From Azolla caroliniana (taxonomy: Eukaryota > Plantae > Polypodiophyta), in the NCBI GenBank assembly GCA_043228905.1, contig JBHGNT010000008.1, forward strand, positions 3,658,001 to 3,722,000: a stretch of DNA of 64,000 nt, given 5' to 3'. A model generated the notes under the pieces. The model saw only the letters and a list, made by a program, of their open reading frames with translations. It ran no database searches and had not been told where the DNA came from. Numbering within the stretch: position 1 is the first letter of the stretch; each line of letters begins with the position of its first letter. Below, piece by piece: positions 12,861 to 54,212 of this stretch. The translations under genes and the position numbers were made by a program.

Positions 12861-13458
12861 TTATCCCTATGAATATTTTTTCTTTCAGCTTCTAGGACAA
12901 AGGTTTTAGAATTAGAGCTTCAGTTTCCTAATCAGTGAATCCGGAGAATTTCCGCTTCTAGAAACAAGATTACTGGTTGTGAATTAAAGTTTCTTTTTCT
13001 GAGATTTCAGGATTAGGGGCTTTGCTCTGTCTGAGTATTAGTTTTTCCTTTCTCAGCTTAGGTGATTAAGATTTTTTCCTCAGGTTTTGAGATTTGGGTT
13101 ATTATTTTTTCGGGTATTTCAGTTTCTAGAGTAAAGCTACATGATTTAGATTTCTTTCTCCTGCTAAAAGTTGAAATTTTGGTTCTAGAACAAGGTTATA
13201 GGGCTTGGATTGACCCTTTCCTTAAATTAGGGTTTTTTTTCCTTGAGATTTTCAGCTTCTCGAACAAAATAAATATATGTTTTTTTGGCTTGACATCACA
13301 AAACCCTGATTTAGAGCATGAGAGGGCCTATGAAAAAGTCACAGCCTTTGGATTGATCTCTTCATAACAGCCTTAATTTAGGGTTTCTGTTAATTGTTTT
13401 CTAGCTTTTAGGGCAGAGTATACGTACTTCATCTATATAGAGTTTGCTCCATCTTGAG

Positions 13459-16400
13459 ATGTTTGGGGGTTATACAGCTTTTATAGTCTGGTGCTCATTT
13501 ATACACATTTATGGTGCCTATGCTTTTTCTGTTGATGGAGAGGCTCTCATTGCCATAAAAGCATCAATCCATGAAGACCCTCTTGGGCTTCTTTCTGATT
13601 GGAAGAAGGGTACAGATCCTTGTACATGGAAAGGGGTAAGGTGTAATTCGGTCTCGAGGGTCATTTCTCTCACTATTTCAAGCAGGTCTGTTTCAAAAGG
13701 TTCCGGTGTGGTCTCCCCTAGTGAAGATGCAAGAAACCATGGGTCTACAAGTGAAGATACAGTAAATCATGGCTCTACAAGTGAAGCTACCACAAATCAT
13801 CATATTTACAGAATTCCAGGTATAAAAAGCCATATTCCTACTGGTGAAAATGTAAGAACTCGTTTCTCCAGCAGCGAAGATGCGACAAATCGTGTTTCCA
13901 TAAGCGAAGGTATGTTGGATTTGAACTCTTCACCTTACACAAGGCAAAGGCTTGATGTGCGAAGATGCGAGCTTCGGGCTTTTCAAAGCTCATCGGAAGC
14001 TTCCACCATGGCCAAGCTCTCAGGCACCATTTCCCCTGCCATCGGGAACCTGTCTCAATTGAGAATTCTCTCTTTTCCTTGCAATTCATTCTTCGGAGAG
14101 ATTCCCGACCAAATTTCATCATTGATGAATCTCGAGTGGTTAGATCTAGCTGAGAATGAAATGTCTGGTTCCATACCCCGAGGCATTGGACGCCTCTCAG
14201 GATTGAAGTATATAAATTTGGGTTACAATGCATTTGAAGGCAAATTACCCACCACTATTTCATGCTTGCAGAAGCTGAAGGTTTTAAATGTGGCTGGGAA
14301 TAGGCTCTCTGGAGAGGTACATGTTTCTCTCGGAAAGCTTCCTGAGCTTGAGGTCCTCGATATATCTTCCAACATGTTTGTGGGCACAATCCCATTGGAT
14401 ATAACAGATGATTGTCACAAATTGGTGCATGTTCATATGGAAAACAATTTCCTCACCGGGAGAATACCATCGGGTTTCGGAAGGTGTCCATACCTGAAAA
14501 CACTGAAGGTTTCTTCCAATCTTCTAACTGGGCCTATTCCTACTGAGATTGGAGAATTGAAGAAACTAGAGGTTCTGGATGTCTCTCAAAATCGCCTTAA
14601 TGGAAGCATCCCTTCCACACTGGCTAAATGCTCTCAACTCTTGTTTCTTATTCTCACAAATAGTGCCAATGGTCCATGCATCCATGATGGTGTTTCAAAG
14701 GATGTAATAGGCTGGAATCCGAAACTGGCAGAATACCCAAGAAAGGAAGAATTCAATTCATTTTCAGCTATTCCAGTGGCTCTACTCAACCTTCCTAGAC
14801 TTCAGCTTTTATGGGCTCCTAGGGCAGCAGCATCCGTAAGTGGCATTTTACCCACTTATTGGGGGAGCTGTAAAAGTCTTCAAGTTCTTAACCTAGCGGA
14901 AAACTCTCTCACCGGAACTCTTTCGGAAGGATTGACACAATGTAGAAGATTGATTTATCTTGACTTGGGTGGTAACAAACTGGAAGGCTATCTGCCATCA
15001 AAGCTGTCCTTCAATTGCATGGCCATGTTTAATATAAGTGGGAATTCTTTTAAAGAATCTCTTAGAAAGGTTTCAAGAGATGGACCATGGAACTGCCCAA
15101 TGCTTCTATCAGATCGCAGCAGATCCAACATGAGGATGAAGATAAAAGCTTACTTTTCCAGCTTATACTGTGGTAGTGTGAAACCCAGGTTTCCATATTG
15201 GATTTCAAATCATGGGATGCCAGTGATTCATGATGTAAATGAGAATGATTCTACTGGATCCCTCATAGGGGATAGAATTATGGAGAAAAAACCATCATAT
15301 GGGTCCATCATTTCAATAAACAAGTTCAAAGTCTTACTTTCAAAGCGTCTTTTGGCATCTTGCCTAAAGTTTGAGGCTTTAATATCGAGGCTGAGCTGGA
15401 ACAAATTCCTCAGTTGTGAATTTCTCATAGATTTCAAGTCTAATTCAGACCAGATCATTGGGTCTATTCCTAAATCTTTAGAGAATGGAAAGAATCTTGT
15501 TCATCTTGACTTCTCAATGAGGATGAATGATTTGAATGAGTATAATTTTAGGCGGCGTCGTCTTTTTGGAATTAGTTCCAATTCAACTTTGGCACCACAT
15601 GCTGCTGAATCTTCTTTGGAGAAAAGGACTCATTCACTAAATGCGATAATAATTGCCGCTATCACATCGGGATGTGTTATTGGATTCGCATTTGTTATCT
15701 TTCTGGTCTTGTTTGCATATTTTAAAGGATGGATTCCTATTCGTCGGAGAAGGCATATAGCTCTGCCTGAGAGATGCCAACTAGTCACATTCGAGAACAC
15801 TTTTGGGTTTGAGTTAACTTATGAAAATATTGTGGAGGCAACAGGACAATTCAGTTTGAATAACCTCATTGGTAGTGGTGGCTTTGGATGTACTTATAAG
15901 GCTGAGGTTAGGCCTGGATTATATGTAGCTGTGAAGAAAATCTATCTAGGAAAGTTTGAAGGCACTCAACAATTTGAGGCCGAGGTGCATAGTCTGGCAA
16001 AGGTACGGCATACGAATCTGGTCACTCTTATTGGCTACTATGCAAGCAAAAATGAGATGTTCCTCCTATACAATTATTTACCAGGGGGAAATCTCCAGAG
16101 CTTGATCCATGATGGAGAAAGAGGATTTGTGAGCTGGAAGGTACGATATAAGATTGCTCTGGATATTGCCGAAGCATTGATTTATCTCCATGATGAGAGG
16201 ATTCTTCATCGTGACATCAAGCCGAGCAATGTTCTCTTGGACAAGAACTTGAATGCATTCCTGTCCGATTTCGGGCTTGCAAGGCTTTTGAATGCATCCG
16301 AAACACATGTAACTACTGATGTATTTGGGACTTTGGGCTATGTAGCTCCGGAGTATGTTCTACAACGCCGTGTTTCGGACAAAGCCGATGTGTACAGCTA

Positions 16401-16668
16401 TGGGGTGCTTTTGTTAGTGCTCATATCAGGGAAGAAAGCGCTTGACGGTAGCTTTTCGGAGCATGGACCATCCGTAGACATTGTTGCATGGGCGGGCCAG
16501 CATTATGAGAGTGGAAAGTTGAAGAAGGTTTTTGCTCATGGCTTGTGGGAGCAAGGTCCCCAATCAGAGTTGATTAATGTCTTGAAGCTCGCGCTTAAAT
16601 GCACCGTGGATTCTCGTTCCGTGAGGCCATCCATGCGAGAAGTAGGGGATGCATTAAGGAATATATGA
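13459..16668 (+). CDS. RPK2: LRR receptor-like Ser/Thr kinase, RPK2/TOAD2-like, intronless
   Basis: Signal peptide, LRRNT (DPLGLLSDW..CTWKGVRC), LRRs, RPK2-type LWAPRA..WGSCKSL and CMAMFNISGN segments, TM helix IIIAAITSG, and a kinase domain with GSGGFG, VAVKK, HRDIKPSN, DFGLARLL, ETHVTTDV.GT.GYVAPEY. First ATG at 13459. Confidence 0.88.
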   Translation: MFGGYTAFIVWCSFIHIYGAYAFSVDGEALIAIKASIHEDPLGLLSDWKKGTDPCTWKGVRCNSVSRVISLTISSRSVSKGSGVVSPSEDARNHGSTSEDTVNHGSTSEATTNHHIYRIPGIKSHIPTGENVRTRFSSSEDATNRVSISEGMLDLNSSPYTRQRLDVRRCELRAFQSSSEASTMAKLSGTISPAIGNLSQLRILSFPCNSFFGEIPDQISSLMNLEWLDLAENEMSGSIPRGIGRLSGLKYINLGYNAFEGKLPTTISCLQKLKVLNVAGNRLSGEVHVSLGKLPELEVLDISSNMFVGTIPLDITDDCHKLVHVHMENNFLTGRIPSGFGRCPYLKTLKVSSNLLTGPIPTEIGELKKLEVLDVSQNRLNGSIPSTLAKCSQLLFLILTNSANGPCIHDGVSKDVIGWNPKLAEYPRKEEFNSFSAIPVALLNLPRLQLLWAPRAAASVSGILPTYWGSCKSLQVLNLAENSLTGTLSEGLTQCRRLIYLDLGGNKLEGYLPSKLSFNCMAMFNISGNSFKESLRKVSRDGPWNCPMLLSDRSRSNMRMKIKAYFSSLYCGSVKPRFPYWISNHGMPVIHDVNENDSTGSLIGDRIMEKKPSYGSIISINKFKVLLSKRLLASCLKFEALISRLSWNKFLSCEFLIDFKSNSDQIIGSIPKSLENGKNLVHLDFSMRMNDLNEYNFRRRRLFGISSNSTLAPHAAESSLEKRTHSLNAIIIAAITSGCVIGFAFVIFLVLFAYFKGWIPIRRRRHIALPERCQLVTFENTFGFELTYENIVEATGQFSLNNLIGSGGFGCTYKAEVRPGLYVAVKKIYLGKFEGTQQFEAEVHSLAKVRHTNLVTLIGYYASKNEMFLLYNYLPGGNLQSLIHDGERGFVSWKVRYKIALDIAEALIYLHDERILHRDIKPSNVLLDKNLNAFLSDFGLARLLNASETHVTTDVFGTLGYVAPEYVLQRRVSDKADVYSYGVLLLVLISGKKALDGSFSEHGPSVDIVAWAGQHYESGKLKKVFAHGLWEQGPQSELINVLKLALKCTVDSRSVRPSMREVGDALRNI

Positions 16669-30289: not shown

Positions 30290-31839
30290 CCGCATTAGGT
30301 GCATGAGGTGACGTTTGAGAGTTAGGCATGTGAACTTGTATGCACCATGTAAATGGTATTTGCAAGGGCCAAATATCGGTGAAGGAATTATTGTTGAGAA
30401 TCAAGCTCAACTTGGTCTAGTGTGTGAACTCACCTTGAGAATGAATAGACACTCCAACGGTCAAGAGTCACCATTATGTCACCACTTTGTATTCTAGCAT
30501 TTAGTATGAGTCACAGAATCATATTCTATGACACATAACTTATGAGCTTTCACATTCCCCATGCTCCATGAGTCTTGTAGTTAATGAAGAGAGAGGGTGA
30601 CTATATAAAGGACTCTCCTCTCACCTTGTATCATGTTGAGTCTTTCTCCTTTGTTAATATACTTTTACCTTGCGTATTCTCTGTGTCTTATTCCTTGTCT
30701 CTCTCACTCACTCTCTCTCTCTCTCTCTCATACACACACATAACTCATATATCTCTTCCGCTTCACAAGAATCCATCTCTTGATTCTTTACATGGTATCA
30801 GAGTGATTTGGTAGTTTGATCTAGCCCATTCGCCTCATCGTGATCGTGTGTTGTGCTCCACGCCGACGACCAAGAACCGGCTCATCGCTATCGTAGCTTC
30901 ACTACATAGCTCGCATTCGAAGAGAGAAGAAGAAGAAGAAGAATCAACATAATGAATACTCAAATGGGGAGCGCTCTCCCTACCGAGAAGTTGGATTGAA
31001 ACAACTTCGCATCTTGGGAGTACAAGATGCACCAATACCTTGTCGAACAAGGCTATTGGAGTTACATCAAAGGAGCGCACGAAGACTGGCCCATCGACAC
31101 GACTCCCGGATACGCGACATGGGAGCAAGCCGCAAGCTACAAGCCCCGTGATGTATTGTTTGGCGACATGTGTTCACGACCACATGCTCGGTTACATTCG
31201 AGAAGCCAAGACACCGAAGGAAGCGTGGGAAAATTTACGAAAGATTTTCGCCGCCAACATGACCGCGAGGAAGCTTCAACTCCGCCAAGAGTTGAACAAC
31301 ATTCAATAAAGGGACATATCCATCACGACATACACCTTGAAGATCAAGGAGCTTTGCGACTCGCTCGGCTCAATAAGCGTAAGTATCGATGATGATGAGA
31401 TGGTGCAAATATGCCTCGGCGGCCTCGCACGACGGTTCAACCCGATGCGAACCGCCGTTCTAGCAAGGGAGAAATCTCCCTCCTTCTTCGAGCTCCAATC
31501 AATGCTATTGGTCAAAGAAAATCACGTGCGTACAAGGAGCAATGAGTCGGAAGGTCACATGCTCTACACACACTCGAATGGAAGAAGAGGACACAGACGA
31601 GCGAGAGGCCGATTCGGCCAAGGACAAGGTGGATGAGGTCCGACCTATGACAACAACTCCCAATTTCGACCGCAAAACGGAAGCCAACGAGGAACCTTCG
31701 CAAGAAGGGGGAGCTTCCACTCCTGCCTGAGCTGTCAAAACACAACCGAATGCGGATATTGCGGAAAGCTCGGCCACCACGAAGGAGAGTGCCGAAAGAA
31801 GATGCGCGAAACGACTTCCACAAGCCGAGAACTCACGAA

Positions 31840-32018
31840 TTACGCACACAATTCCGACTACGAAGAGTATAGCGGAATGTACAGGCACAACTCTGACTAC
31901 GAAGATCGTGGCGGAATGTATGCACATAACTCCGACCGTGGCGAAATGTACGGGCACAACTCCGACTACAAAGATCGTGGCGGAATGTATGCACACAACT
32001 CCGACCGTGTCGGAATGT
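31840..32018 (+). repeat. Coding tandem repeat (39/30-nt units, YAHNSDYEDRGGM / YAHNSDRGEM) between gag and protease of Copia-1
   Basis: Visible in ORF 31802-32155; the same array is at 58940-59150. Confidence 0.85.
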
Positions 32019-32796
32019 TCATGATGAAACATAGAGCAAACTCTATGTCGGCCTCTACCTCAACTAGTGCCTCCGGTCCAGAAGACGTATGGTTCGTCGA
32101 TTCCGGTGCCTCGAAGCATATGACATCGCATCAAGAATGGTTCCGAGAACTTTGAGAGCCGGACTGACCCAGCTATGTCGAAACCGGAGACGACACTATG
32201 CACCCGATTCGGCACATCGGCAATGTTCCGTTTGGAAAAGAAGGTGATCGGATGTGTCGTGACTCTTGAGTAGGAAGCAGAGAGAGAGCGATGGCGATAG
32301 AGATAACGATAACGATAGAGATGGCGAGAGCGGTAGAGATAGCGATAGTGATAGCAAAAGAGAGTGAAAGAGGGAGAGAGTGCGAGAGAGAGAAAAGTAT
32401 AAGTGAGAGATAAGAAATGGGAATGCGATTATTATTATGAGAAAGAAGATTACAAGGAGTAGGCTAAGGGCTAAAGACTGGTGTTGAACCGAATGAGTTG
32501 TGATGAGTGTATGGACTCTTATTTATAGGCCCTTATGGAGTATTCTAGAATGTTCTAGAATATTTTAGATATTTATGAATAATAATAATAATAAATATAA
32601 TCATGAAATATTCAAGAACATTCTAGAATAATCTAGAATGTTCTAAATATCTCGTAATAACTAAACATATAATTATTATGGTTACATCTCACATATGTTA
32701 TTACAATGGTTAAAGTACAATATGTAAACCAAGAGGTTATGGGTTCGATTCCTGGTTCGCCAAGATGAATGTCATGATAAGCCAAGATGTATGTCT

Positions 32797-35700
32797 TCAT
32801 GACATTATCCCCCCTTTTCGATGACGAGTTGCACGAGTCGGAAGAAAAGAGTTCAGACTTGGTTTATGAGGATATTGGTTGTGAAATGCAACAACCATAT
32901 CGGAGGCATTGGCAAGATGTTCGGCAGGCTCCCATGTTCGATCATTAGGTGTATAGCCTAACCAATCAACCAAGTAGTATAGTTTGTTGCGAATGATCTT
33001 GGAGTCGAGGATAGCGGCAACCTCATATTCAGAGCCATTGGAAACGTCAATTGGAGGTGGGGGAGGTGTAACACGACCCGGAATAGAGCTCGTTGTGTAG
33101 GGCTCCAAAAGTGAAACATGGAAGACCGGGTGAAGACGCATATGAGGAGGAAGATCAAGACGAAATGTCACATCATTGATCTTACCACTTATGACATATG
33201 GGCCAAAACGTTGATAATCCAATTTGTAGCAAGGTCGGTTCGTTTTAATGCTACCTTGTAAAAGCCATACACGATCGCCTACTTGAAATGTAGTTGATGA
33301 ATCACGCCGATGACGGTCAACAATCTTCTTTTGAGTGTTTTGGGCTTCACATAAATGATGCAAAAGCATATCCTGAACTTCTTGGAGTCGAGTGAGCCGA
33401 TCTTCAGCAGCTGGGTTTTTTGGGAGTTCAGGATGTTCAAGCATCGTCCAACGAGGATGGTACCCAATGTTTGCAAAAAATGGGGAATATCCAGTAGAAG
33501 AATGCTCGGAGTTGTTATAAGCAAATTCTGCCAAAGGTAGTAAATCCACCCAATCATCTTGTTGATAGTTGACAAAACAACGTAGATATTGCTCGACTGT
33601 TTGGTTGGTGCGCTCACTCTGCCCATTAGTCTCTGGATGGTAGCCGGAAGAGAGTTTACAAGAAGTATGTAAGAGTTTGAACATGTGCCGCCAAAATTTC
33701 GAGATGAATTGGGGACCCCGATCACTGATAATATCATCCGGAAGACCATGATGGCGAAACACCTCCTGCATGAGTAAATCAACTGTCTCTTGACTAGTAA
33801 TGGTCTTTGTGCATGGAAGGAAATGTGCCATCTTCGTAAAACGATCGACAACCGTGAGAATCGAATCAAATCCCTTGGAAGGTGGAAGATCCGTAATAAA
33901 GTCCAAGGAAATAGATTTCCATGGGCTCTCCGGAATAGGCATTGGCTGTAATAAGCCATATGGATGACGTCGAGGCTTTTTTGATCGGCAACATGTATCA
34001 CAGCTACAAACATAATCCGTAACAAAATGGCGAAGCCGTGGCCACCAATATCGGCGAGAAATCAACTCAAAAGTCTTGTGGATGCCGAAGTGTCCTGCCA
34101 TTGGTGTGTCATGACATTGTTGCATGACTTTGAGTCGAGAAGGACCGTCAGGCACATACAAGAGAGTTTGTCGAAAAAGTAACCCATCATGCCAACTAAA
34201 CTGGGTGTAGTCTAGACGAGGATTTTGAGTTTGGGAGCTAGATGCACGATTTGGGATAATATGGCTCAAAACCTCTTGGGCGAACGCAACAGTCGCAATC
34301 TGCTCACGAATGGAATCAAGAAGCCTTGAATCTCCCGGTGTGTTGATGGTATGCATTGCCATTATTCGTAGACGATCAGGACCTAAGAGGATTTGCTTTT
34401 GGCTTTCAAATGCGGCCTCTCCAGGTTGAAGTTCCATATACGAACGTCTAGATAAAGCATCTGCTTTTCCTTGTTGCATCCCAGGGCGATATAGAATTAC
34501 AAAATCGAAACGAGTTAAGAACTGCGCCCAACGAGCTTGTCGTCGATTCAAGACTCGAGCACTTTGAAAGTATGTTAGATTTTTATGATCATTGTAGACA
34601 ATAATCTGCTGAGAAGAACCCTCCAGAAAATGACGCCATTGTTGAAAAGAATCCACAATGGCAAGAAGCTCTTTGTCGTGAATCTCATAGTTGATTTCTG
34701 CGGCTTCAAATTTTCGTGAGTGAAAAGCCACCGGGTGCAGTTCACCATCATCACCAATTTGGGATAGTACACTTCCGAGTGCGAAATCCGATGCATCAGC
34801 TTCAAGTATAAAGCGCCTCATTGGATCGACATGGATTAAGATTGGTGCGGATGTAAATGCTTGCTTTAAACCCTCAAATGCAGAGTTCGCATCTATACTC
34901 CATACAAATGATCGATTCTTGTGCGTCAGTTGAGTGAGGGGCAACACAATTTTTGAATAATCTTTGATGAACTTGCGATAAAAGTTTGCGAACCCCAAAA
35001 AACATTGCACATCTCGCACGGACTGTGGTGTTTGCCAATCCAAAATTGTTTGAACCTTTGATGGATCCATAGAGATGCCATTTGAAGAGACTATGTACCC
35101 CAAAAACTCCACTTGACATTGGTCGAAACTACACTTCTCCAATTTTGCATAGAGACCATACTCTCGTAGCCGTTGCAAAACTTGGCGAACATGTATATCA
35201 TGTTCTTCTTGAGTTTTTGAGTAGATCAAGATATCATCCAGGTAAACAATGATGAAGATATCGAGGAAGTCTCGAAAAATATCATTCGCCATATGTTGGA
35301 AGACTGCTGGTGCATTCGTGAGGCCAAAAGGCATCACTGTGTACTCAAAATGACCATAGCGAGTGCGGAACGCCGTCTTCCATTCATCCCCAGGACGAAT
35401 TCGAACAAGGTTGTAGGCACCTCGAAGATCTAACTTCGTGAAATACTTTGCTTCACTGAGGCGTTCTAGAAGGCTTGAGATCAATGGGAGAGCATATCGG
35501 TTTCTAACGGTCACTTTATTCAAGCCTCGATAATCCACGACCATACGAAGCGTACCATCTTTCTTCTTAACGAAAAAGATGGGTGCACCAGCAGGAGATT
35601 TTGAATGTTGGATAAAACCATTTGCCAAGTTCTCATTGATATATTCTCGAAGAACCTCTAACTCCGTGGGCGAAAGATTATAAATTGGTCCCCATGGAGG

Positions 35701-36441
35701 CTCTTTTCCTGGCTGCAAATCAATTGGGCAATCATATGGTCGATGCTCTGGTAGTCTATTAGCCTTCACCTTATCGAACACATCGGAGAATTCTATGTAC
35801 TTCTTTGGTAGTTGGACCCCCAATTCTTGTGAGCTAGATGAGGGAGTTGCTAAAACCGCAAATATCATCATGTCTTCCTTTCTTCCATCCTCTCGTAATT
35901 GATGTATAGAGATTGTTGAAATTGTGGGGGATCCTAGATCCTTAGTTGAAGCTTCAAGAGACTTGGATTGTACGGTGACCTCTTCAATAGTTCTTTTTCT
36001 CCAATCAATGGTTGGGTTATGTAACTCAAACCAAGGAAGACCAAGAACTAGAGAGTGCTCCGGACTACTAATGATGTTAAATGAGATGACACTAGCCAAA
36101 TTACCTAGGACTACACGAATTGGTTCAGACTCTTCGACTATATCTCTTGATGCTATAGGGCGACCATCGATGACTCCTACAACTACTGGGTTTGGGAGTT
36201 TTTTCAAGATGATGTTTTGAGTCAATGCAAACTCGCGATCCATGAAACAAGAATTGGCTCCGGAATCTAGGAGGGCAGAGGCTAGGGCGCGATGACCTGT
36301 AGATGTGCTAAGCTCGACTTGTGCAGAAAAAACTCTACTAACTTGATTTGATGAAATGGAACCACAACTAGGTACTGACTCTACATAACTAGGATGGTCC
36401 AACCAAATGGCTCCTATTTTGGCCGGACTTATTCGTTTAAC
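32797..36441 (-). CDS. pol: Chromovirus Pol (protease-RT-RNase H-integrase-chromodomain), in the -1 frame relative to gag
   Basis: ALLDSGA, YLDD, ADASD..ELLAI, HHCC plus DDE integrase, GPY motif and chromodomain EYEVAAILDS..YLVDWLGY..RTWEP. No ATG start is needed if expressed by frameshift. Confidence 0.94.
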   Translation of the reverse strand, partial: VKRISPAKIGAIWLDHPSYVESVPSCGSISSNQVSRVFSAQVELSTSTGHRALASALLDSGANSCFMDREFALTQNIILKKLPNPVVVGVIDGRPIASRDIVEESEPIRVVLGNLASVISFNIISSPEHSLVLGLPWFELHNPTIDWRKRTIEEVTVQSKSLEASTKDLGSPTISTISIHQLREDGRKEDMMIFAVLATPSSSSQELGVQLPKKYIEFSDVFDKVKANRLPEHRPYDCPIDLQPGKEPPWGPIYNLSPTELEVLREYINENLANGFIQHSKSPAGAPIFFVKKKDGTLRMVVDYRGLNKVTVRNRYALPLISSLLERLSEAKYFTKLDLRGAYNLVRIRPGDEWKTAFRTRYGHFEYTVMPFGLTNAPAVFQHMANDIFRDFLDIFIIVYLDDILIYSKTQEEHDIHVRQVLQRLREYGLYAKLEKCSFDQCQVEFLGYIVSSNGISMDPSKVQTILDWQTPQSVRDVQCFLGFANFYRKFIKDYSKIVLPLTQLTHKNRSFVWSIDANSAFEGLKQAFTSAPILIHVDPMRRFILEADASDFALGSVLSQIGDDGELHPVAFHSRKFEAAEINYEIHDKELLAIVDSFQQWRHFLEGSSQQIIVYNDHKNLTYFQSARVLNRRQARWAQFLTRFDFVILYRPGMQQGKADALSRRSYMELQPGEAAFESQKQILLGPDRLRIMAMHTINTPGDSRLLDSIREQIATVAFAQEVLSHIIPNRASSSQTQNPRLDYTQFSWHDGLLFRQTLLYVPDGPSRLKVMQQCHDTPMAGHFGIHKTFELISRRYWWPRLRHFVTDYVCSCDTCCRSKKPRRHPYGLLQPMPIPESPWKSISLDFITDLPPSKGFDSILTVVDRFTKMAHFLPCTKTITSQETVDLLMQEVFRHHGLPDDIISDRGPQFISKFWRHMFKLLHTSCKLSSGYHPETNGQSERTNQTVEQYLRCFVNYQQDDWVDLLPLAEFAYNNSEHSSTGYSPFFANIGYHPRWTMLEHPELPKNPAAEDRLTRLQEVQDMLLHHLCEAQNTQKKIVDRHRRDSSTTFQVGDRVWLLQGSIKTNRPCYKLDYQRFGPYVISGKINDVTFRLDLPPHMRLHPVFHVSLLEPYTTSSIPGRVTPPPPPIDVSNGSEYEVAAILDSKIIRNKLYYLVDWLGYTPNDRTWEPAEHLANASDMVVAFHNQYPHKPSLNSFLPTRATRHRKGGIMS
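36390..36441 (-). other. -1 programmed ribosomal frameshift signal (G UUA AAC + 6-nt spacer + H-type pseudoknot)
   Basis: Minus strand reads GTTAAAC gaataa GTCCGGCCAAA aTAGGAgcca TTTGGTTGGAC ca TCCTA: 11-bp stem 1 and 5-bp stem 2. Confidence 0.8.
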
Positions 36442-37556
36442 ACATCCTCTAATTGGCTCAAGACATCAAATCTATTCTCATGGCATGGGCTATTAGGCTT
36501 AGTACTTAAGTTATTAGAAGTGATAGTAGAACTTGATGTAGGGTTGTCATGTGCACTTACTTGGTAAACTTGACGCCTGGGTTTATGTGGACAATTCACA
36601 GCTATATGTCCTGGACCACCACAGTAGAGGCATAGGCGATGCGCCCGACGTCGTTGTTTCTCAGCATCTGATAAGGGCCCTCGACGTTGTGTCGACTCTA
36701 TTTCCATCGGAGTGGGACCATCCCTCGTAACGGGTCTAGAACCTTGTGGCGGTGTGGCGACTATAGAAGCGTATGTCTGTTCCGGTTGGCGGCGTAACAT
36801 TTGTTGACGTTCAGAACGTCGCTCAAATAGGCGATTATCACATCGCACAGCTCGGCTAATAGCTTCAATAAGAGACTTTGGATCTTCATGGAAAGTAAGA
36901 AGAAGATCTTTGACATCGTTACGCAAACCCTGACGGAATTGATCCATTAAGGCTGCCTCATCCCAAGGGATGTCGCATGCCAAGAGACGGAAATCTGCGG
37001 CATAAGCTGAAGCGGGACGATCTCCTTGTCGGAGTCTTCGAATCTTGTTTATTGCAGTCCTAGTGCTATCCGTATCTCCAAAACTAGCTTGAAACTCCTT
37101 AACGAATGCCTCGAAATCCTCTAGTAATGGTGATTTCTTCTCAAGAAGTGGTGCAAACCATGCTAACGCTGTACCGCTTAGCAAGGTTCCTATTAATCCC
37201 ACACGGGCAGCATCAGTTGGATACCGATTGGGATGTAACTGAATCACCAAACGAACTTGATTCAGGAAACCTCGAAAGAGAGATCTGGTACCATCAAACT
37301 TGGCAGGGAGGCTAATCTTTGGTTCCCTTGGGGAGTTTTGAACCCCCGCCGCTTGTTCTCGTAATGTTAATATAGTAGCCTCAAGTTGATGAACCCGTTG
37401 TGATAACTCCTCATATTGATGAGCTTTCTCAGTACTGACTTGTTGAAGATCCCCGAGTAGCCTTTGATTTTCTTGCTCTAATGCCACAAACTTAGTGGTG
37501 ATCATATCGAGCTCCGAAAGGACACGCATATACTCTTGCTTGCTGACCGACTCCAT
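36429..37556 (-). CDS. gag: Chromovirus Gag (coiled coil, capsid, CCHC zinc knuckle)
   Basis: 375-aa ORF with LPAKFDG, LRQG..ASAYAADF, PTPMEI and CLYCGGPGHIAVNC. Confidence 0.92.
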   Translation of the reverse strand: MESVSKQEYMRVLSELDMITTKFVALEQENQRLLGDLQQVSTEKAHQYEELSQRVHQLEATILTLREQAAGVQNSPREPKISLPAKFDGTRSLFRGFLNQVRLVIQLHPNRYPTDAARVGLIGTLLSGTALAWFAPLLEKKSPLLEDFEAFVKEFQASFGDTDSTRTAINKIRRLRQGDRPASAYAADFRLLACDIPWDEAALMDQFRQGLRNDVKDLLLTFHEDPKSLIEAISRAVRCDNRLFERRSERQQMLRRQPEQTYASIVATPPQGSRPVTRDGPTPMEIESTQRRGPLSDAEKQRRRAHRLCLYCGGPGHIAVNCPHKPRRQVYQVSAHDNPTSSSTITSNNLSTKPNSPCHENRFDVLSQLEDVLNE

Positions 37557-37627
37557 AACCGCGGGGGAAAAAGAAAGAAGGATAAAGAAGAAAGCTTGCT
37601 AGGGTTATTGGAGGAAGGGAAAAGAAT

Positions 37628-37638
37628 ATTCGGTTCAA
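37628..37638 (-). other. Self-priming primer-binding site (TTGAACCGAAT) complementary to the predicted transcript 5' end at 37870-37880
   Basis: Lies 2 nt from the 5' LTR end, does not start with TGG, and is a perfect 11-nt complement of ATTCGGTTCAA, which begins 33 nt after the TATA box. Confidence 0.85.
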
Positions 37639-37905
37639 ACTGTCGTGACTCTTGAGTAGGAAGCAGAGAGAGAGCGATGGCGATAGAGATAACGATAACG
37701 ATAGAGATGGCGAGAGCGGTAGAGATAGCGATAGTGATAGCAAAAGAGAGTGAAAGAGGGAGAGAGTGCGAGAGAGAGAAAAGTATAAGTGAGAGATAAG
37801 AAATGGGAATGCGATTATTATTATGAGAAAGAAGATTACAAGGAGTAGGCTAAGGGCTAAAGACTGGTGTTGAACCGAATGAGTTGTGATGAGTGTATGG
37901 ACTCT

Positions 37906-38030
37906 TATTTATAGGCCCTTATGGAGTATTCTAGAATGTTCTAGAATATTTTAGATATTTATGAATAATAATAATAATAAATATAATCATGAAATATTCA
38001 AGAACATTCTAGAATAATCTAGAATGTTCT
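37906..38030 (-). promoter_or_regulatory. LTR promoter: TATA box (TATAAATA, 37906-37913) with two heat-shock-element arrays (37928-37947, 37996-38030); duplicated in the 3' LTR (32520-32644)
   Basis: aTTCtaGAAtgTTCtaGAAt and aTTCaaGAAcaTTCtaGAAtaaTCtaGAAtgTTCt fit alternating nGAAn/nTTCn pentamers. Confidence 0.78.
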
Positions 38031-38082
38031 AAATATCTCGTAATAACTAAACATATAATTATTATGATTACATCTCACATAT

Positions 38083-38148
38083 GTTATTACAATGGTTAAA
38101 GTACAATATGTAAACCAAGAGGTTATGGGTTCGATTCCTGGTTCGCCA
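38083..38148 (+). other. Degenerate tRNA/SINE-like segment in LTR U3 with Pol III B box (also 32697-32762)
   Basis: TACAATGGTTAA (weak A box/D-loop-like), GGTTCGATTCC (canonical B box, 38128-38138), ending in CGCCA. Cloverleaf stems are poor. Confidence 0.5.
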
Positions 38149-40313
38149 AGATGAATGTCATGATAAGCCAAGATGTATGTCTTCATGACAGGATGCAGAT
38201 GGATTTACAAAGTGAAGTACAACGCCGACGGTTCTGTCAACCGCTACAAAGTGAAACTCGTAGCGAAAGGCTATGCACAAACGCACGGAGTTGACTATGA
38301 AGAGACCTTTGCCTCGGTGGCAAAGATGACGACGGTATGAACTGTAATTGCGCTTGCTGCTGTGAAAGGGTGGCACCTCCATCAAATGGACGTCAAGAAC
38401 GCCTTTCTACAAGGCGAATTAGAAGAGGTGTACATGATCCAACCACCCAGCTTGAACTCGAGCACCCATCCGAAAGCTGTTTGCCGATTCAAGAAGCCAC
38501 TCTACGGCCTCAAGCAAGCACCGTGTGCTTGGCATTTGAAGATAATGCAATATCTTCATCAAATCGGCTTCTGTATGTCAAAATCGGACAACTCCCTCTA
38601 CATACGAAGCGATTCCGCAAGTCCGATCGTCATCATCTTATATGTGGATGACCTAGTCATTGGAGGTGCGCATCTCGTCGAAATCAATAAGGTCAAATCC
38701 CTCCTTTCCGACAAGTTCGAGATGATGGACATGAAGGAACTCCACTACTTCCTCGGCATCGAGGTAATTCGGACTCCGACCGGAATCATGATTTCTCAAC
38801 GGCACTACATCCTCAACTTGTTATACAAGTTTGGTATGGCTAAGTGCAAATCCGTAGCAACCCCACTCGATCGCAATCTCAAACTAGATGCGAACTCTGG
38901 CAGCAAAGCGTGTGAGCCGTCTCAGTATCGGCAACTCATCGGGAGTCTCATCTACCTCACGATCACTCGACCCGATCTCAGTTATCCGGTCGGTCTCCTT
39001 AGTCAATTCATGCAAACACCGCGTGATACTCACTTGGATTGCGCTAAGCGAGTTCTACGGTACGTGAGCGGCACAATGGATTGCGGCATCCTCTACAAGA
39101 CCGCGATGCCAATATGCCTCGAGGGGTACACAGACGCCGATTGGGCTGGCTACAAAGCCGATAGAAGATCAACCTCCGGATTTGTTTTCTCCCTCGGCAG
39201 CGGAGCAATATCCTGGAGTAATAAGAAGTAGTCTACCGTCGCTCTTTCAAGTACGGAGGCGGAATACAGGGGCGTAGCCGTAGCTGCGTGTGAAGCCGTA
39301 TGGCTCAAGAGGATTTTGAATGATCTGGGCGTACCCATCAAGGATCTGACTTCCCTTTACTGCGACAACATGAGCAATATCTATTTGGCTCGGAACCCGG
39401 TGTTCCACGTGCGGACAAAGCACATCGACGTGCACTATCACTTCATCCGAGAGTGCGTTCTAGTTGGCGATGTCGACCTACAACACATTAGCACAAATCT
39501 TCAAACGACCGACATCTTCACTAAAGACTTAGGAGCCTACAAGTTGTGGCAATTCATGACCGATCTCGGATTGACGATCCTTGACCTGCCAAGCTTGAGG
39601 GGGAGTACTAAAGACATTACGCAATAACGCATGGATTCTACAGGCCGCACACACTACGCAAGAACATGTGGATTACGTAACCACGCAATGAAGCCGCGAA
39701 GAGCCGATCTACCGCGCAAAGCCGCGAAGAAATACGCAAGCTGAAGCACAGACTTCGCAACTACGCACAACGCAAGCTGGAGCACGAATTCCGTAACTCC
39801 GCATAAATGCGAGTCGACACGAGTCGACGCAGACTCCAGAACGTGAGTTGAAGCGGATTTCGGATACCGTCTGAAACCGACCTGACTTGAGCTTGAGGGG
39901 GCGTGTTAAGAATCAAGCTCAACTTGGTCTAGTGTGCGAACTCACCTTGAGAGTGAATAGACACTCCAACGGTCAAGAGTCACCATTATGTCACCTCTTT
40001 GTATTCTAGCATTTAGTATGAGTCATAGAATCATATTCTATGACACATAACTTATGAGCTTTCACATTCCCCATGCTCCATGAGTCTTGTAGTTAATGAA
40101 GAGAGAGGGTGACTATATAAAGCACTCTCCTCTCACCTTGTATCATGTTGAGTCTTTCTCCTTTGTTAATATACTTTTACCTTGCGTATTCTCTGTGTCT
40201 TATTCCTTGTCTCTCTCACTCACTCACACACACACTCTCTCTCTCATACACACACATAACTCATATATCTCTTCCGCTTCACAAGAATCCATCTCTTGAT
40301 TCTTTACAATTAT

Positions 40314-48831: not shown

Positions 48832-51800
48832 TGTTAGAAATTGACGCTTTCCAAACCTTCTCCTCTCGGCCACAAGCGAGGAAACACGAATCAATGCAGC
48901 AGTAAATCGAAAACACAGAGAGAGACTCGAATGCACAGGGTTTAGCGTGGAAAACCCTAGACGGGAAAAACCACGGGAGTGCAAGACTCCAACTATCACT
49001 ATACGCAGGGAATGTACAATGGCGAGCTGCAAGGCGACGACCTTGAGCTCGCTGTCCTCGCCACAGGCGGCAGTATTACACAGAGGTGTCGACCTCTTCC
49101 TTTCTCTCTCTCTCTCTCTCTCTCTCGGCTGCTCTCACTTCGCTCCCTCTAAGTGGAAAACAGAAAAATGAGCAACAACTACAAAACTGTTTGCCCTAAG
49201 TCATATTTATACACATATGACTTTCGGGCTATTTACAAATATAGCCTCGAGGGCCCTTGGCAAACATATTCACAAATATGTCCCCGCATCCGGATCTCTC
49301 TCCGGGTACATTCGTCATCCGGCTCCGTAGCCGGGGTCTTCATCATCCGGATCCGAAACCGGGTCTTCATCATCCGGTTCCGATACCGGGTACTCCTCAT
49401 TCGGGTCTTCATTCCCGATTCCCAGACATCTGACCATCCCATCCGGAGGGACCGTAATCCCAACAAACTCCCCCTTCACTTCGGCATGGGATGTCTTTCC
49501 AGTCCGACCCTCTTCCGGCACGCTTCCAGCTTGTCGGGTGTGAGCACTTTGGTCAGCATATCTGACCCGTTCTCGTCCGTGTGGATCTTCGTCAGCACGA
49601 ACTCCTGGTCTTCTATCCTTTCCCGGATCCAGTGATATCTTCGCTGGATGTGCTTCGTCCGGGACTGATAAGCCGCGTTCTTCGCAAGGTGGATGGCACT
49701 CTGACTGTCGCAGTAGAGTCGGTACTCCTCCTGCCGGATACCGAACTCTCTAATGAAGTCCTTCATCCATATTATTTCCTTGCCGGCTTCAACAGCCGCC
49801 ATGTACTCCGCCTCCGTAGTTGACAACGCAACCGTCTTCTGCAGCCTCGACTGCCACGAAACAGCTCCCCCTGCATACGTCATCACATACCCTGATGTGG
49901 ACCGGCTGGTATCTGCATCAGCCGACATATCCGAATCGGTAAAGCCGTCGAGTTCGGGTTTACCGGAGCCGAATCGGAGGCACACGTTTGCCGTGCCCTT
50001 CAGGTATCGGAGTATCCACTTGGTCGCGTTCCAGTGCTCTTTGCCGGGATTGCTCATGTACCGGCTCACCACTCCGACTGCATATCCTATGTCCGGTCTT
50101 GTACACACCATTGCGTACACCAAGCTTCCGACGGCAGAGGCATATGGTACTTTCATCATGTCCTCCTTCTCAGCCTTTGTCTTGGGGCTTTGCTTGCTGG
50201 ACAACTTGCAGTTTGCCGGGAGGGTTGACCCGACCGGTCTTGCTTCCGACATGTTGAACCGGTGAAGCACCTTTGTCACGTACTTCTCCTGTGACAGCCA
50301 CAACTGCTTCTTCTTCCGGTCTCGGATGATGTGCATCCCTAGTATTTGCCTCCGGACCCAGGTCCTTCATTGAGAAGGTTCGGTGAAGCGCTTTCTTCAG
50401 CATCCGTATCTTGACCTGGTCCCGTCCGACGATCAACATGTCGTCCACGTACAGGAGGAGTATTAGAAAGTCTCCTCCTTCGAACTTCTTCACAAACACG
50501 CAGTGATCGGACTGCGTTTTGTGGTACCCTTCGTCGGTCATGAAAGAGTCGAACTTCCGGTACCATTGCCGGGGAGCCTGCTTCAGTCCGTAAAGGCTCT
50601 TCTTCAACCGGCATACCAGGTGCTCCTTCCCTTTCTTCTCGAATCCTTCCGGTTGCTGCATGTAGATCTCTTCTTCGAGGTCGCCGTGAAGGAATGTCGT
50701 CTTCACGTCCACCTGTTCTACCTCGAGGTCCATGCTTGCCGCTATGCTCAGCACCGTCCGGATGGAGGTCATCTTCACTATCGGGGCAAATATCTCGTCG
50801 AAGTCGATGCCCTTCTTCTGCTGGAACCCCTTCACCACGATCCTGGCTTTGTATCTCGGGGGGTTTCCGGCATCTCCCGGTTTCAGCTTGAACACCCACT
50901 TGTTTCGAAGTGCCCGCTTTCCTTTCGGCAACTCCACAAGTTCATATGTGTGGTTCTCATGCAGGGAATCCATCTCCTCATGCATGGCACTTAACCACCT
51001 GCGGCTATGGGTGTCAAGCTTTGCTTCTTCAAAACTCTCCGGCTCCCCCTCGTCGGTTAGCAGCACGTGCTCTGGTTCCGGAAATCTCCGGGGGGCCCTT
51101 ATCTCTCTTAGAGGATATCTCCGTTCCGGAGCTTCGGTAACCGGCTCCTCCGTTTCCTCTTCATCCGAATCCATTTCGGGATCGGGGCCGGTTCCGGTAT
51201 CAGTTTCATCTTCCTCGGCCGGTTCTGTTTCTTCACCATCTTCGGCCGGATCCTCGAGTGCTAACCGGTCCCTTGCCGGTCAGGACTGCTCCTCGTAGAG
51301 TTGATCCTCACCGGTCGACTTGGAGCTCTTCATCTTCTTCTCCGACTCCCAGTCGGCGAGTGTCTTGTCCTCCATGAAGATGATATCACGACTCCGGAAT
51401 ATCTTTTTGTCGACCGGGTCCCATACTCGGTAGCCGAACTCGTCATCGCCGTAACCGAGGAATATGCATGGCCGGGTCTTTGGATCTAGCTTTCCTCTCC
51501 GGTCCTTTGCCACATGCACATATGCGAGACACCCGAACACCTTCAGATGCCGGTAGGATACTTCCCTACCGGTCCACACTCTCTGCGGCGTGTCTCCGTC
51601 CAAAGGTACTGAGGGTGATCTGTTTATCACGTATGTCGCCATCGACATTGCCTCAGCCCAAAACCCCTTGGGTAATTTCGCATGCGCCAGCATGCTCCGG
51701 ACCCTCTCCATTATGGTCTGGTTCATCCTCTCGGCCAGCCCGTTCAGTTTCGGTGTCTTCGGCACAGTAAACTCGAGCCGGATTCCCTTCGAGCGACAGT

Positions 51801-54212
51801 ACTCCTCGAACTGCCCCCGGTATTCCCCTCCGTTATCCGCTCGTATCGCTTTCAGCTTCTTGCCGGATTCCCTTTCCACTCTCGCGTGGAGTTCTCTGAA
51901 GACGCACAACACTTGGTCCTTTGTCTTCAACGGTGCCGTCCACAGCTTCCGGCTGTGGTCATCAATGAATGTCACGAAGTACTGGGCTCCGCCATGTGAC
52001 CTCGTTTCTACTTGACACACGTCAGTGTGCACCAACTCCAATGGTGCGCTACGTCTCGTCGGTGGCCTTGAGTGGAAGGAGGTTCGGTTCTGCTTACCGG
52101 CCAGGCAATCGGTGCACTTCTCCAGGTGCACATGCTTCACTGGAATAAGGTTGTCTTCTACAAGCCTCTTCATCCCCTTCTCACTCATGTGGCACAGTCT
52201 CTTGTGCCACAGCTCACCGGCAGTGTCGGCTGCCACGTTCAACTCCTCCGGACACAACCAGGCATTCATAAGGTACAGTGTGTTGACTTTCCGGGCCCGA
52301 GCCACTATCAGGCTCCCCTTGCTGAACTTCATTACGCAGTTCTGGATGCTACCTGTGTAGCCTTCATCATCTAGCCTCCCGGCCGAAATCAGGTTCAATC
52401 GAACCTCCGGAACGTGTCGGACATCCTTCAGCAACATTTTGCATCCGGTCGAGGTTGTCAACCATACGTCTCCTATGCCGGCAATCCGGCACGTACCTTC
52501 ATTTCCCATCCGAACACAGCCATGCTCACCGGCTGTGTAGGATGAGAAGTATCTTCTTTCCGGGGTCAGGTGGAACGACGCTCCGGAATCGACCACCCAG
52601 GTAGTCTCATCGCCGGCAATGTTTAGTTCACCTTCTTCGGTGATGAGCATGATCTCCTCTTCACTTGCCGCGAGTGCCGTCGTTCCTTTCCGGTCCTGCC
52701 CTCGCCGATCCGAACCATTCCGGTCCGTGCCTCCCCGGTAAGCACCGTTCCGTTCCGAAGACTTCTTCGAATCGGTGTCGCCGGCTCCGTTGTCTTTTCG
52801 GTAATGCCGACAATTCTTTCGGAAGTGCCCCGGCTTCCCACAGTGGAAGCATGTGGGCCTTCCTCTTGACTGCGACCGGGTCCCCGACTTCTCCCGTCTT
52901 TGCGGACTCCGGTTCCGTCGTCTTCCCCGATCCGATTCGGTAAGCAGCATCTTAGGATCGGAGGCCGGTTCTTTATCTCTCCGACGCGCTTCTTCGTTCA
53001 AAATGCTTGTCTTTACCGTTTGTAGGGACAAGTTATCTTCGGTGCAGGAGGTGCTGAGAGTCACCACCAAGTTCTCCCAGCTTTCCGGCAATGTACACAT
53101 CAGCATGATGGCTTGCATTGCATCCTCCAACGGGAACTTGATCGCCGCAAGCTGGTTCACGAAACCCATGAACGTGCTTACGTGTTCCACCATACTCTCG
53201 CCGTCCCGGTACTTGAGGTTCACTATCTTCCTCATCAGGGAGGTCCGGTTCAACGCATTCTTCCTCTCGTAGAGGCCCGACAGCTTCTGCCACATCTCAT
53301 ATGCGTTGGTGTCGTTCGCCACATGTTGTAGAACGCTCACGTCGACGTATTGCCGAATGGTTGCAACGGCTTTCCGGTTCAGAAGCCTCCATTCCGTCTC
53401 AAGTACCCCCTTGGGTATTTCCGACCTGTCGATCGGTTCATACAGGTCCCGAACAATGAGCAGATCCTCCATCTTTATCTTCCAGTCGGCGTAGTTCTGC
53501 GCATTCAGCACCATCATCCCCGGCTGCCCGCTGCTGCCGCCTTCCATTTTCTGCACTGCAGTCGCTCTGATACCAGATTGTTAGAAATTGACGCTTTCCA
53601 AACCTTCTCCTCTCGGCCACAAGCGAGGAAACACGAATCAATGCAGCAGTAAATCGAAAACACAGAGAGAGACTCGAATGCACAGGGTTTAGCGTGGAAA
53701 ACCCTAGACGGGAAAAACCACAGGAGTGCAAGACTCCAACTATCACTATACGCAAGGAATGTACAATGGCGAGCTGCAAGGCGACGACCTTGAGCTCGTT
53801 GTCCTCGCCACAGGCGGCGGTATTACACAGAGGCGTCGACCTCTTCCTTTCTCTCTCTCTCTCTCTCTCTCTCGGCTGCTCTCACTTCGCTCCCTCTAAG
53901 TGGAAAACAGAAAAATGAGCAACAACTACAAAACTGTTTGCCCTAAGTCATATTTATACACATATGACTTTCGGGCTATTTACAAATATAGCCTCGAGGG
54001 CCCTTGGCAAACATATTCACAAATATGTCCCCGCATCCGGATCTCTCTCCGGGTACATTCGTCATCCGGCTCCGTAGCCGGGGTCTTCATCATCCGGATC
54101 CGAAACCGGGTCTTCATCATCCGGTTCCGATACCGGGTACTCCTCATTCGGGTCTTCATTCCCGATTCCCGGACATCTGACCATCCCATCCGGAGGGACC
54201 GTAATCCCAACA
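48832..54212 (-). mobile_element. Full-length Ty1/Copia element (Copia-2, Tnt1/Tork-like) with two disabling lesions
   Basis: 634-bp LTRs at 53579-54212 and 48832-49465, TSD GATAT, primer site TGGTATCAGAGCG (53563-53575, minus), polypurine tract 49466-49480. The gag-PR-INT-RT-RH frame is broken by a stop at 51280 and a frameshift near 50350. About 6 LTR differences noticed. Confidence 0.95.

What the first reader, a model, noticed from the sequence alone, without database searches (positions are those of the whole stretch)
32255..38190. Young intact chromovirus combining a heat-shock promoter, tRNA-independent self-priming, pseudoknot frameshifting and a chromodomain
Seen: near-identical 550-bp LTRs, perfect GGATG TSD, open gag and pol, and the cis-signals detailed in the separate findings below. 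Known: each module is described on its own (HSE-driven Copia elements such as ONSEN, self-priming Tf1, -1 frameshifting in sushi/PEG10, chromodomain integrases). Inference: this is a possibly still active, stress-inducible Gypsy element of the Tf1/sushi-Tcn1 type in a land plant. I do not know of this combination being described for one plant element.
Basis: partly seen in the sequence, partly recalled or inferred. Interest (0 to 1): 0.85.

Follow-up and report, generated by a model that had tools for sequence, protein, structure and literature searches.

The report
Heat-promoter Tcn1 retrotransposons in a fern
This is a young, intact copy of a jumping-gene family with over a hundred copies in what is likely a water fern; its likely self-priming, likely frameshifting and chromodomain are standard for its lineage, but perfect heat-shock switches in its promoter, shared by most sister families, would make it a heat-triggered element of a kind so far proven only in cress plants and a flatworm.

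Summary
In detail: a 5,936-bp minus-strand Ty3/Gypsy element with 550-bp LTRs (1 mismatch), GGATG target duplication, open gag and pol, nested in an older Copia element; at least 107 copies exist. It matches the Tcn1 chromovirus lineage, closest to Selaginella SM-Tcn1 (81% over 216 RT residues, hand count; same LTR and junction signatures). Self-priming, overlapping gag/pol and a cage-type chromodomain are published Tcn1 traits, so three of the four 'modules' are one inherited package, not a new combination. Self-priming is well supported (primer and binding site co-vary across families). A -1 shift site plus 11-bp stem is conserved; the pseudoknot's second stem is not. What is new: (1) perfect heat-shock elements just upstream of TATA in 4 of 6 sister lineages, absent in two and in outside relatives, with 925 HSE-TATA cassettes genome-wide; (2) the host is likely a water fern, whereas plant Tcn1 was reported only from mosses and Selaginella. 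Heat induction and present activity are untested. The scan's earlier notes held nothing on this family. New variant of a known kind.

The parts
37641..38190 (-). 5' LTR, 550 bp, TG...CA
32255..32804 (-). 3' LTR, 550 bp, 1 mismatch to the 5' LTR
32250..32254 (+). Target-site duplication GGATG, left copy
38191..38195 (+). Target-site duplication GGATG, right copy
37997..38014 (-). Distal perfect four-unit heat-shock element (starts 101 nt before TATA); copy in 3' LTR at 32611-32628
37929..37946 (-). Proximal perfect four-unit heat-shock element (starts 33 nt before TATA); copy in 3' LTR at 32543-32560
37906..37913 (-). TATA box of the 5' LTR
37870..37880 (-). Predicted self-primer: 11 nt at the inferred transcript 5' end, perfect complement of the primer-binding site
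37628..37638 (-). Primer-binding site, 2 nt after the 5' LTR, complementary to the LTR
36429..37556 (-). gag, 375 aa (Retrotrans_gag, Ty3_capsid, zinc knuckle)
36435..36441 (-). Predicted -1 slip heptamer G TTA AAC, in register with gag and pol frames
36390..36428 (-). Predicted frameshift stimulator: 11-bp stem (36428-36418 with 36407-36397); possible 5-bp second stem (36416-36412 with 36394-36390)
32797..36465 (-). pol frame, 1,222 codons stop to stop: protease (LDSGA), RT (YLDD), RNase H, integrase (HHCC, DDE region), SH3, chromodomain; stop lies inside the 3' LTR
32878..33027 (-). Type I chromodomain with the three cage aromatics (Y1147, W1168, Y1171)
32805..32818 (-). Polypurine tract abutting the 3' LTR
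30392..40308 (+). Older host Copia element into which this one inserted (LTRs 30392-30792 and 39904-40308, 96.8% identical; ATTAT duplication; frames interrupted by stops)

Best explanation
This is a recently inserted, intact copy of a high-copy chromovirus family that likely belongs to the Tcn1 lineage and sits in a likely water-fern genome; it likely primes reverse transcription from its own RNA, likely makes Gag-Pol by a -1 ribosomal shift, and is predicted to be switched on by heat through the heat-shock elements in its LTR. Mechanism, step by step: (1) heat shock factor would bind the two four-unit elements 33 and 101 nt before TATA (elements shown; binding and induction inferred, about 0.65). 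(2) Transcription would start about 33 nt after the TATA start, so that the first 11 nt fold onto the primer-binding site and, once cut, prime minus-strand DNA as in Tf1 (pairing and co-variation shown; start site and cleavage inferred from Tf1, about 0.95). (3) Most ribosomes stop at the gag stop in the spacer; some slip -1 at G_UUA_AAC against the 11-bp stem and read pol (frames, site and stem shown; shift inferred, about 0.9; a true pseudoknot about 0.5). (4) The polypurine tract primes the plus strand, integrase makes a 5-bp duplication, and the cage-type chromodomain likely reads methylated histone tails (domain shown; targeting not shown). Steps 2-4 are the inherited Tcn1 package; step 1 is the added module, likely present in the ancestor of the fern families and replaced in one branch.
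For: Anatomy. Copies: 107 exact matches to a 24-nt junction motif, control 0; of the 19 best copies, 11 have identical LTRs, 16 have both frames open, 18 a perfect duplication, 19 both HSEs and the slip site, 18 the full 11-nt primer match. Self-priming: in 16 copies from six lineages the match is 11/11 in 14 and 10/11 in 2, five different primer/site sequence pairs co-vary, and the TATA-to-primer distance is 33-34 nt in 15 of 16. Frameshift: site, 6-nt spacer and 11-bp stem kept in all six lineages, with a G-C to A-U double change in lineage C. The published SM-Tcn1 record, read by eye, has the same LTR-end/binding-site junction, an 11-nt complement 34 nt after TATA, a canonical G_GGA_AAC site, a 6-nt spacer and an 11-bp stem with two double-sided changes; RT identity 175 of 216 (hand count) against 72% for the best named fungus and 50% for a seed plant. 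Tree: fungal/vertebrate side, in a starred clade with a chytrid, far from the seed-plant row. HSEs: perfect runs of 3-7 units within 101 nt of TATA in lineages A, B, E, F although upstream LTR identity is only 42-60% between lineages; 925 four-unit-HSE-plus-TATA cassettes genome-wide, control 0. Host: neighbouring RPK2-like gene groups with named fern genes; 523 Mb, contig 22 is 12.8 Mb and contig 23 is 0.6 Mb; Azolla has 22 chromosomes.
Against: No expression or heat data were available, so induction and present activity are unshown. No labelled Tcn1 sequence could be put in the tree; placement rests on a hand count and on signatures. The second pseudoknot stem is 5 bp in A and B, 4 bp in E and F, and weak or absent in C and D; lineage E has G_UCA_AAC (25 of 28 matched junctions), a poor tandem-slip site. 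Lineage B has only one perfect three-unit run. The moss chromovirus RLG1 is repressed by heat. Flanks show no targeting: retroelement domains beside 14 of 19 copies versus 12 of 19 fixed control stretches; GC 43% versus 44%, p=0.74. The host gene has a long branch (0.96), so its place in the tree is less sure.
Confidence: 0.7

Rival explanations
1. An ordinary Tcn1 family whose HSE-like runs are not a working heat switch: they are 10-bp repeats of a TCTAGA palindrome amplified within LTRs, or real sites kept silent by methylation, and the element is expressed in development or not at all.
For: TCTAGA occurs 4-7 times in the upstream LTR of A, B and E, often out of HSE register in B; two sister lineages spread without HSEs; moss RLG1 is heat-repressed.
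Against: Perfect in-register runs of 4-7 units sit at a heat-shock-gene-like distance from TATA in lineages whose upstream LTRs hardly align; lineage F has a 4-7 unit run with only one TCTAGA; 0 of 5,000 shuffles.
Confidence: 0.25
2. The lineage reached this fern by horizontal transfer from a Selaginella-like or fungal source rather than by descent from early land plants.
For: 81% RT identity to SM-Tcn1 (hand count) across a split of about 400 million years (date recalled); PCR surveys of ferns, Salvinia included, found no Tcn1; no row named Adiantum or Ceratopteris among the best 120 hits of either pol search, though those ferns are in the database.
Against: RT is strongly conserved in this group (72% even to a mucoralean fungus); most close hits are unnamed; annotations often mask transposons; sister lineages within the genome already span 84-92% in the same segment, so the stay is old. 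No clade test was possible.
Confidence: 0.3
3. Pol is made by a -1 shift stimulated by a plain hairpin, or by slippage of one tRNA only, rather than by a classical tandem slip at a pseudoknot.
For: Only the AAAC core, spacer and first stem are common to all lineages; the second stem fails in C and D; young lineage E (LTRs 99.5-100% identical in 3 of 4 copies) has G_UCA_AAC.
Against: A and B keep a 5-bp second stem and E and F a 4-bp one at a similar place; G_UUA_AAC with a pseudoknot is the known site of equine arteritis virus.
Confidence: 0.45

Closest known systems
SM-Tcn1 of Selaginella moellendorffii (Novikova et al. 2010, PMC2864245; passages and supplement S3 read whole)
   Same: Size about 5.7-5.9 kb, two overlapping ORFs, domain order, type I chromodomain, LTR-end/binding-site junction, TATA-to-primer spacing (34 versus 33 nt), 6-nt spacer and 11-bp stem with the same loop start, 81% RT identity over 216 residues (all by eye).
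   Different: Lycophyte host; canonical G_GGA_AAC site; no perfect HSE seen by eye in its LTR. The authors reported no evidence for self-priming; the complement is visible in their record.
Plant Tcn1 lineage, chromovirus|Tcn1 of REXdb (Neumann et al. 2019, PMC6317226; passages and one supplementary table row)
   Same: 5-bp duplication, length within 5,466-9,444 bp, self-priming, overlapping gag and pol, chromodomain with aromatic cage.
   Different: Reported only from moss and club-moss; no heat-shock promoter mentioned in the passages read.
Tf1 / Tj1 / MAGGY, Tf1-sushi group (PMC4600332, passages)
   Same: Self-priming from the mRNA 5' end (shown for Tf1); MAGGY chromodomain binds H3K9me2/3 and steers integration. 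MAGGY activation by heat is recalled and appears in a search listing, not read in the original.
   Different: Fungal hosts; no HSE passage found in the MAGGY stress paper searched.
ONSEN (Copia, Brassicaceae) and HSE-bearing Ty3 families of Macrostomum lignano (PMC12801592; abstract and section 10)
   Same: Canonical HSEs in the LTR promoter; these are described as the only two validated cases of HSE-driven LTR elements.
   Different: ONSEN is Copia; the flatworm families are Mag, CsRN1 and Gmr1/Osvaldo clades, not chromoviruses; here function is untested.
Physcomitrium RLG1 and RLG2 (Vendrell-Mir et al. 2020, PMC7466625; passages)
   Same: Young, transcribed Gypsy families of a seed-free plant; RLG1 has a chromodomain; RLG2 is induced by heat and ABA.
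   Different: RLG1 is repressed by heat; the passages give neither a lineage nor HSEs for RLG2.
PEG10 and equine arteritis virus frameshift signals (PMC5009743, PMC3835772; passages)
   Same: -1 shift at a heptamer followed by a short spacer and a 10-11 bp first stem; G_UUA_AAC is the EAV site.
   Different: Those pseudoknots are established; here the second stem is short and not kept in all lineages.

Membership tests
Ty3/Gypsy chromovirus | Domain order gag-PR-RT-RH-INT with C-terminal chromodomain, LTRs, PPT | tested here: met
chromovirus|Tcn1 | RT-RH-INT phylogeny inside the Tcn1 clade | tested here: inconclusive
   Tree of 87 rows puts it with fungal and unnamed rows, away from the one seed-plant row and the algal rows, but no labelled Tcn1 row was available; 175 of 216 RT residues match SM-Tcn1 by hand count, above all named rows
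chromovirus|Tcn1 | Self-priming binding site instead of a tRNA site | tested here: met
   11-nt complement, co-varying across lineages; no tRNA library was searched against the site
chromovirus|Tcn1 | Chromodomain with aromatic cage (type I) | tested here: met
   Y, W, Y align with the cage positions of HP1/CDY/MPP8 chromodomains
chromovirus|Tcn1 | 5-bp duplication, 5.5-9.4 kb, overlapping gag and pol | tested here: met
   against the table row
chromovirus|Tcn1 | Published plant host range: mosses and Selaginella | tested here: not met
   Host likely a fern; a range note, not a defining sequence trait
Seed-plant chromoviruses (Reina, Tekay, Galadriel, CRM) | tRNA-Met primer site; chromodomain lacking the full cage | tested here: not met
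   Self-complementary site and full cage; 50% RT identity to the one seed-plant row
HSE-driven LTR elements (ONSEN-like behaviour) | Canonical HSEs of three or more units upstream of TATA | tested here: met
HSE-driven LTR elements (ONSEN-like behaviour) | HSE- and HSF-dependent heat induction | not testable with these tools
   No heat-stress RNA data available
Pseudoknot-stimulated -1 frameshift | Slip heptamer, 5-9 nt spacer, first stem | tested here: met
   compensatory changes in lineage C and, by eye, in SM-Tcn1
Pseudoknot-stimulated -1 frameshift | Conserved second stem | tested here: inconclusive
   5 bp in A and B, 4 bp in E and F, weak or absent in C and D

The most novel reading that the evidence does not exclude
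A Tcn1 lineage close to the Selaginella element colonised water ferns, gained a heat-shock-factor promoter early, kept it across four lineages and is still heat-mobilised, seeding some 900 HSE-TATA cassettes that can rewire the heat response of the fern: the first heat-shock-element-driven chromovirus in any plant, possibly acquired by horizontal transfer.
Probability: 0.35. Interest if true: 0.72.

Novelty: new variant of a known kind. Interest (0 to 1): 0.5.

Why it matters
Validated HSE-driven LTR elements are described for only ONSEN and one flatworm (PMC12801592). A heat-driven chromovirus in a fern would be an independent case, with a built-in control: sister lineages in the same genome with and without HSEs. 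Some 900 HSE-TATA cassettes could put nearby genes under heat control in a plant whose genus (if Azolla) is known for heat sensitivity (recalled). A fern host widens the plant range of Tcn1 and bears on the open question whether the lineage was retained or transferred. The co-varying primer, binding site and junction stem give sequence-level support for self-priming and -1 frameshifting in plant Tcn1, which had been predicted, and show the primer in SM-Tcn1 where the original paper found none.

Tried and rejected
Expression: no RNA holder listed; laying three possible-RNA runs and one DNA run gave 8 short contigs in X22, none in X23, and X20 is probably DNA: no verdict on expression. Insertion targeting: flank domains 14 of 19 versus 12 of 19 controls, host-gene domains 0 versus 3 of 19, GC no different: no support, low power. 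A 23-nt binding-site pattern matched only this copy, so a junction pattern was used for counting. Four short SM-Tcn1 peptides did not identify a stored protein as that element (two had no match, two matched several rows). Cluster listing for 10 close homologues gave no organism names. L163 and L176 (2 of 17 fetched) were left out of the LTR test because no clear LTR pair was found. Metagenome loci were mostly distant (39-65% identity for 76 of 79); of 19 with a repeat pair only L098 had a three-unit HSE. Literature: no report of Tcn1 in ferns in searches 'Tcn1+fern+chromovirus', 'Tcn1+ferns+retrotransposon' from 2013, the six-term fern search (none of the 30 listed holds Tcn1) or in PMC8282616, PMC13469084, PMC12924346; no plant chromovirus with HSEs. 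Lineage tables in figures, databases or supplements not held (the REXdb element list and FASTA, five .doc files of PMC2864245, fern genome papers) may already list fern Tcn1. Rejected: tRNA-primed seed-plant chromovirus; contamination by a fungus (copies on 22 chromosome-scale contigs, nested in host elements); artefact of assembly (distinct duplications and flanks).
Full report
Observation. The element runs on the minus strand from 38190 to 32255. Its LTRs are 550 bp with one mismatch, end in TG and CA, and are flanked by GGATG on both sides. gag (375 aa) and pol (1,222 codons) are open and overlap, pol lying in the -1 frame. Pfam finds gag, zinc knuckle, RT, RNase H, integrase, SH3 and Chromo domains, and the catalytic motifs are present. 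It sits inside an older Copia element whose LTRs are 96.8% identical.

Family and age. A DNA search of the own genome scored 19 full-length copies (out of 8,490 first-look candidates), the other 18 being 99.3-99.5% identical to this one. Of the 19, 11 have identical LTRs, 6 one mismatch, 1 a 2-bp gap and 1 three mismatches; 16 have both frames open; 18 have a perfect 5-bp duplication. A 24-nt junction motif has 107 exact matches, reversed control 0. Searches with four plus one diverged homologues showed at least five further lineages in the same genome (here B-F), 84-92% identical in a 210-residue RT segment, several with 99.4-100% identical LTRs. The family is young; that it still moves is not shown.

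Host. An RPK2-like gene in the window falls in a 15-row clade (100/99) whose named members are all ferns, on a long branch. The genome has 523 Mb; contig 22 is 12.8 Mb and contig 23 only 0.6 Mb. Azolla filiculoides is listed with 22 chromosomes. A water fern of that kind is the likely host; this is inference.

Self-priming. The site 2 nt after the 5' LTR is perfectly complementary to 11 nt that begin 33 nt after the TATA start; 1 of 5,000 shuffles gave such a match. In 16 copies from six lineages the match is 11/11 in 14 and 10/11 in 2; five different sequence pairs occur, each changed on both sides, and the TATA distance is 33-34 nt in 15 (the other lacks the TATA box). Co-variation may come from selection or from the site being copied off the primer; both need self-priming. 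The mechanism is that of Tf1 (PMC4600332, passages). The start site itself was not measured.

Frameshift. G TTA AAC lies in register at the end of gag, followed by a 6-nt spacer holding the gag stop and an 11-bp stem. Site and stem are kept in 19 of 19 family copies (two with one stem change) and in all six lineages, with a G-C to A-U double change in C; lineage E has G TCA AAC. G_UUA_AAC is the site of equine arteritis virus. The second stem is 5 bp in A and B, 4 bp in E and F, and weak or missing in C and D. A -1 shift at a structured site is well supported; a pseudoknot is possible, not established. The stem also codes conserved residues, so only the compensatory changes speak for RNA structure.

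Chromodomain. It matches HP1, CDY and MPP8 chromodomains and keeps the three cage aromatics, the type I form described for Tcn1 in seed-free plants (PMC3350952, passages). Targeting was not detected: retroelement domains flank 14 of 19 copies and occur in 12 of 19 control stretches.

Lineage. In a quick RT-RH tree of 87 rows the element and its sister lineages form a starred clade within a starred 47-row group that holds a chytrid row, next to mucoralean rows and far from the seed-plant and algal rows; no labelled Tcn1 row was available. The SM-Tcn1 record in the supplement of PMC2864245, read by eye, settles most of this: 175 of 216 RT residues identical (best named row: 72%), the same LTR-end junction, an 11-nt primer 34 nt after TATA that the authors had not found, and a G_GGA_AAC site with 6-nt spacer and an 11-bp stem differing by two double-sided and two single-sided changes. 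Neumann et al. give plant Tcn1 as 83% self-priming, 60% overlapping frames, 100% chromodomain, 5-bp duplication.

Heat-shock promoter. Each LTR has two perfect four-unit elements, starting 101 and 33 nt before TATA; 0 of 5,000 shuffles gave one. Perfect runs occur in lineages A (4, 4), B (3), E (4, 5) and F (4 to 7), whose upstream LTRs are only 42-60% alike, but not in C and D, which carry other repeated motifs there. C and D group together in the tree (support 84), so one replacement after an early gain is the simplest reading. The outside relative L033 has the priming signature but no such element, nor, by eye, has SM-Tcn1. A four-unit element followed by TATA occurs 925 times in the genome, control 0; the 100 listed matches mostly repeat the spacers of these lineages. 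Function is untested.

Comparison and novelty. It works like Tf1 in priming, like PEG10 or EAV in decoding, and is predicted to work like ONSEN in induction. It is very likely a Tcn1 member, pending a tree with references. HSE-driven LTR elements are described as validated only in ONSEN and Macrostomum (PMC12801592); moss RLG2 is heat-induced and RLG1 heat-repressed (PMC7466625). Plant Tcn1 was reported from mosses and Selaginella only, and not found in a PCR survey of ferns; my searches found no later report, but unseen supplements and databases may hold one. Whether the fern got it by descent or transfer is open.

Verdict. A real, young element; a new variant of a known kind. The heat-shock promoter spread over a fern radiation, with HSE-free sisters as a control, and the range extension earn 0.5.

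Noticed in passing
L164 and L166, upstream of the LTR TATA box (lineages C and D): In place of HSEs these LTRs carry repeated TGCATG/CATGCA and CCAAnTGG motifs, which recall RY and ABA-type elements (labels recalled): a possible promoter swap to a spore, desiccation or ABA programme.
   Followed up: partly
L167-L169, L110-L139, gag/pol junction (lineage E): A young lineage uses G TCA AAC, a poor tandem-slip site, in front of the same stem; how it shifts is unexplained.
   Followed up: partly
L170 / L127 (G000:C9, about 1.28 Mb): An older copy (LTRs 95%) has lost the shift signal by deletion, leaving gag and pol in one 1,674-codon frame; its 5' LTR also lacks the TATA box.
   Followed up: no
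SM-Tcn1 record, supplement S3 of PMC2864245: The published Selaginella element shows by eye a self-primer and a -1 shift signal that the paper did not report.
   Followed up: partly
window 13441-16668 (+): Single-frame RPK2-like LRR receptor kinase gene on a long branch among fern homologues.
   Followed up: partly
window 31833-32009: The host Copia element carries short tandem repeats between gag and protease coding a repeated YAHNSD-like peptide; a related Copia copy at about 58400-62400 has them too.
   Followed up: no
window 49476-53580 (-): A further GC-rich Copia element with long open frames.
   Followed up: no
P0023: A related pol (69% identical) carries a dUTPase domain (PF00692), as described for some fungal Gypsy elements.
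   Followed up: no
L005 / L176 (G000:C14, 13.50-13.51 Mb): A family copy sits head to head with a copy of lineage F, which is itself followed by another related copy.
   Followed up: no
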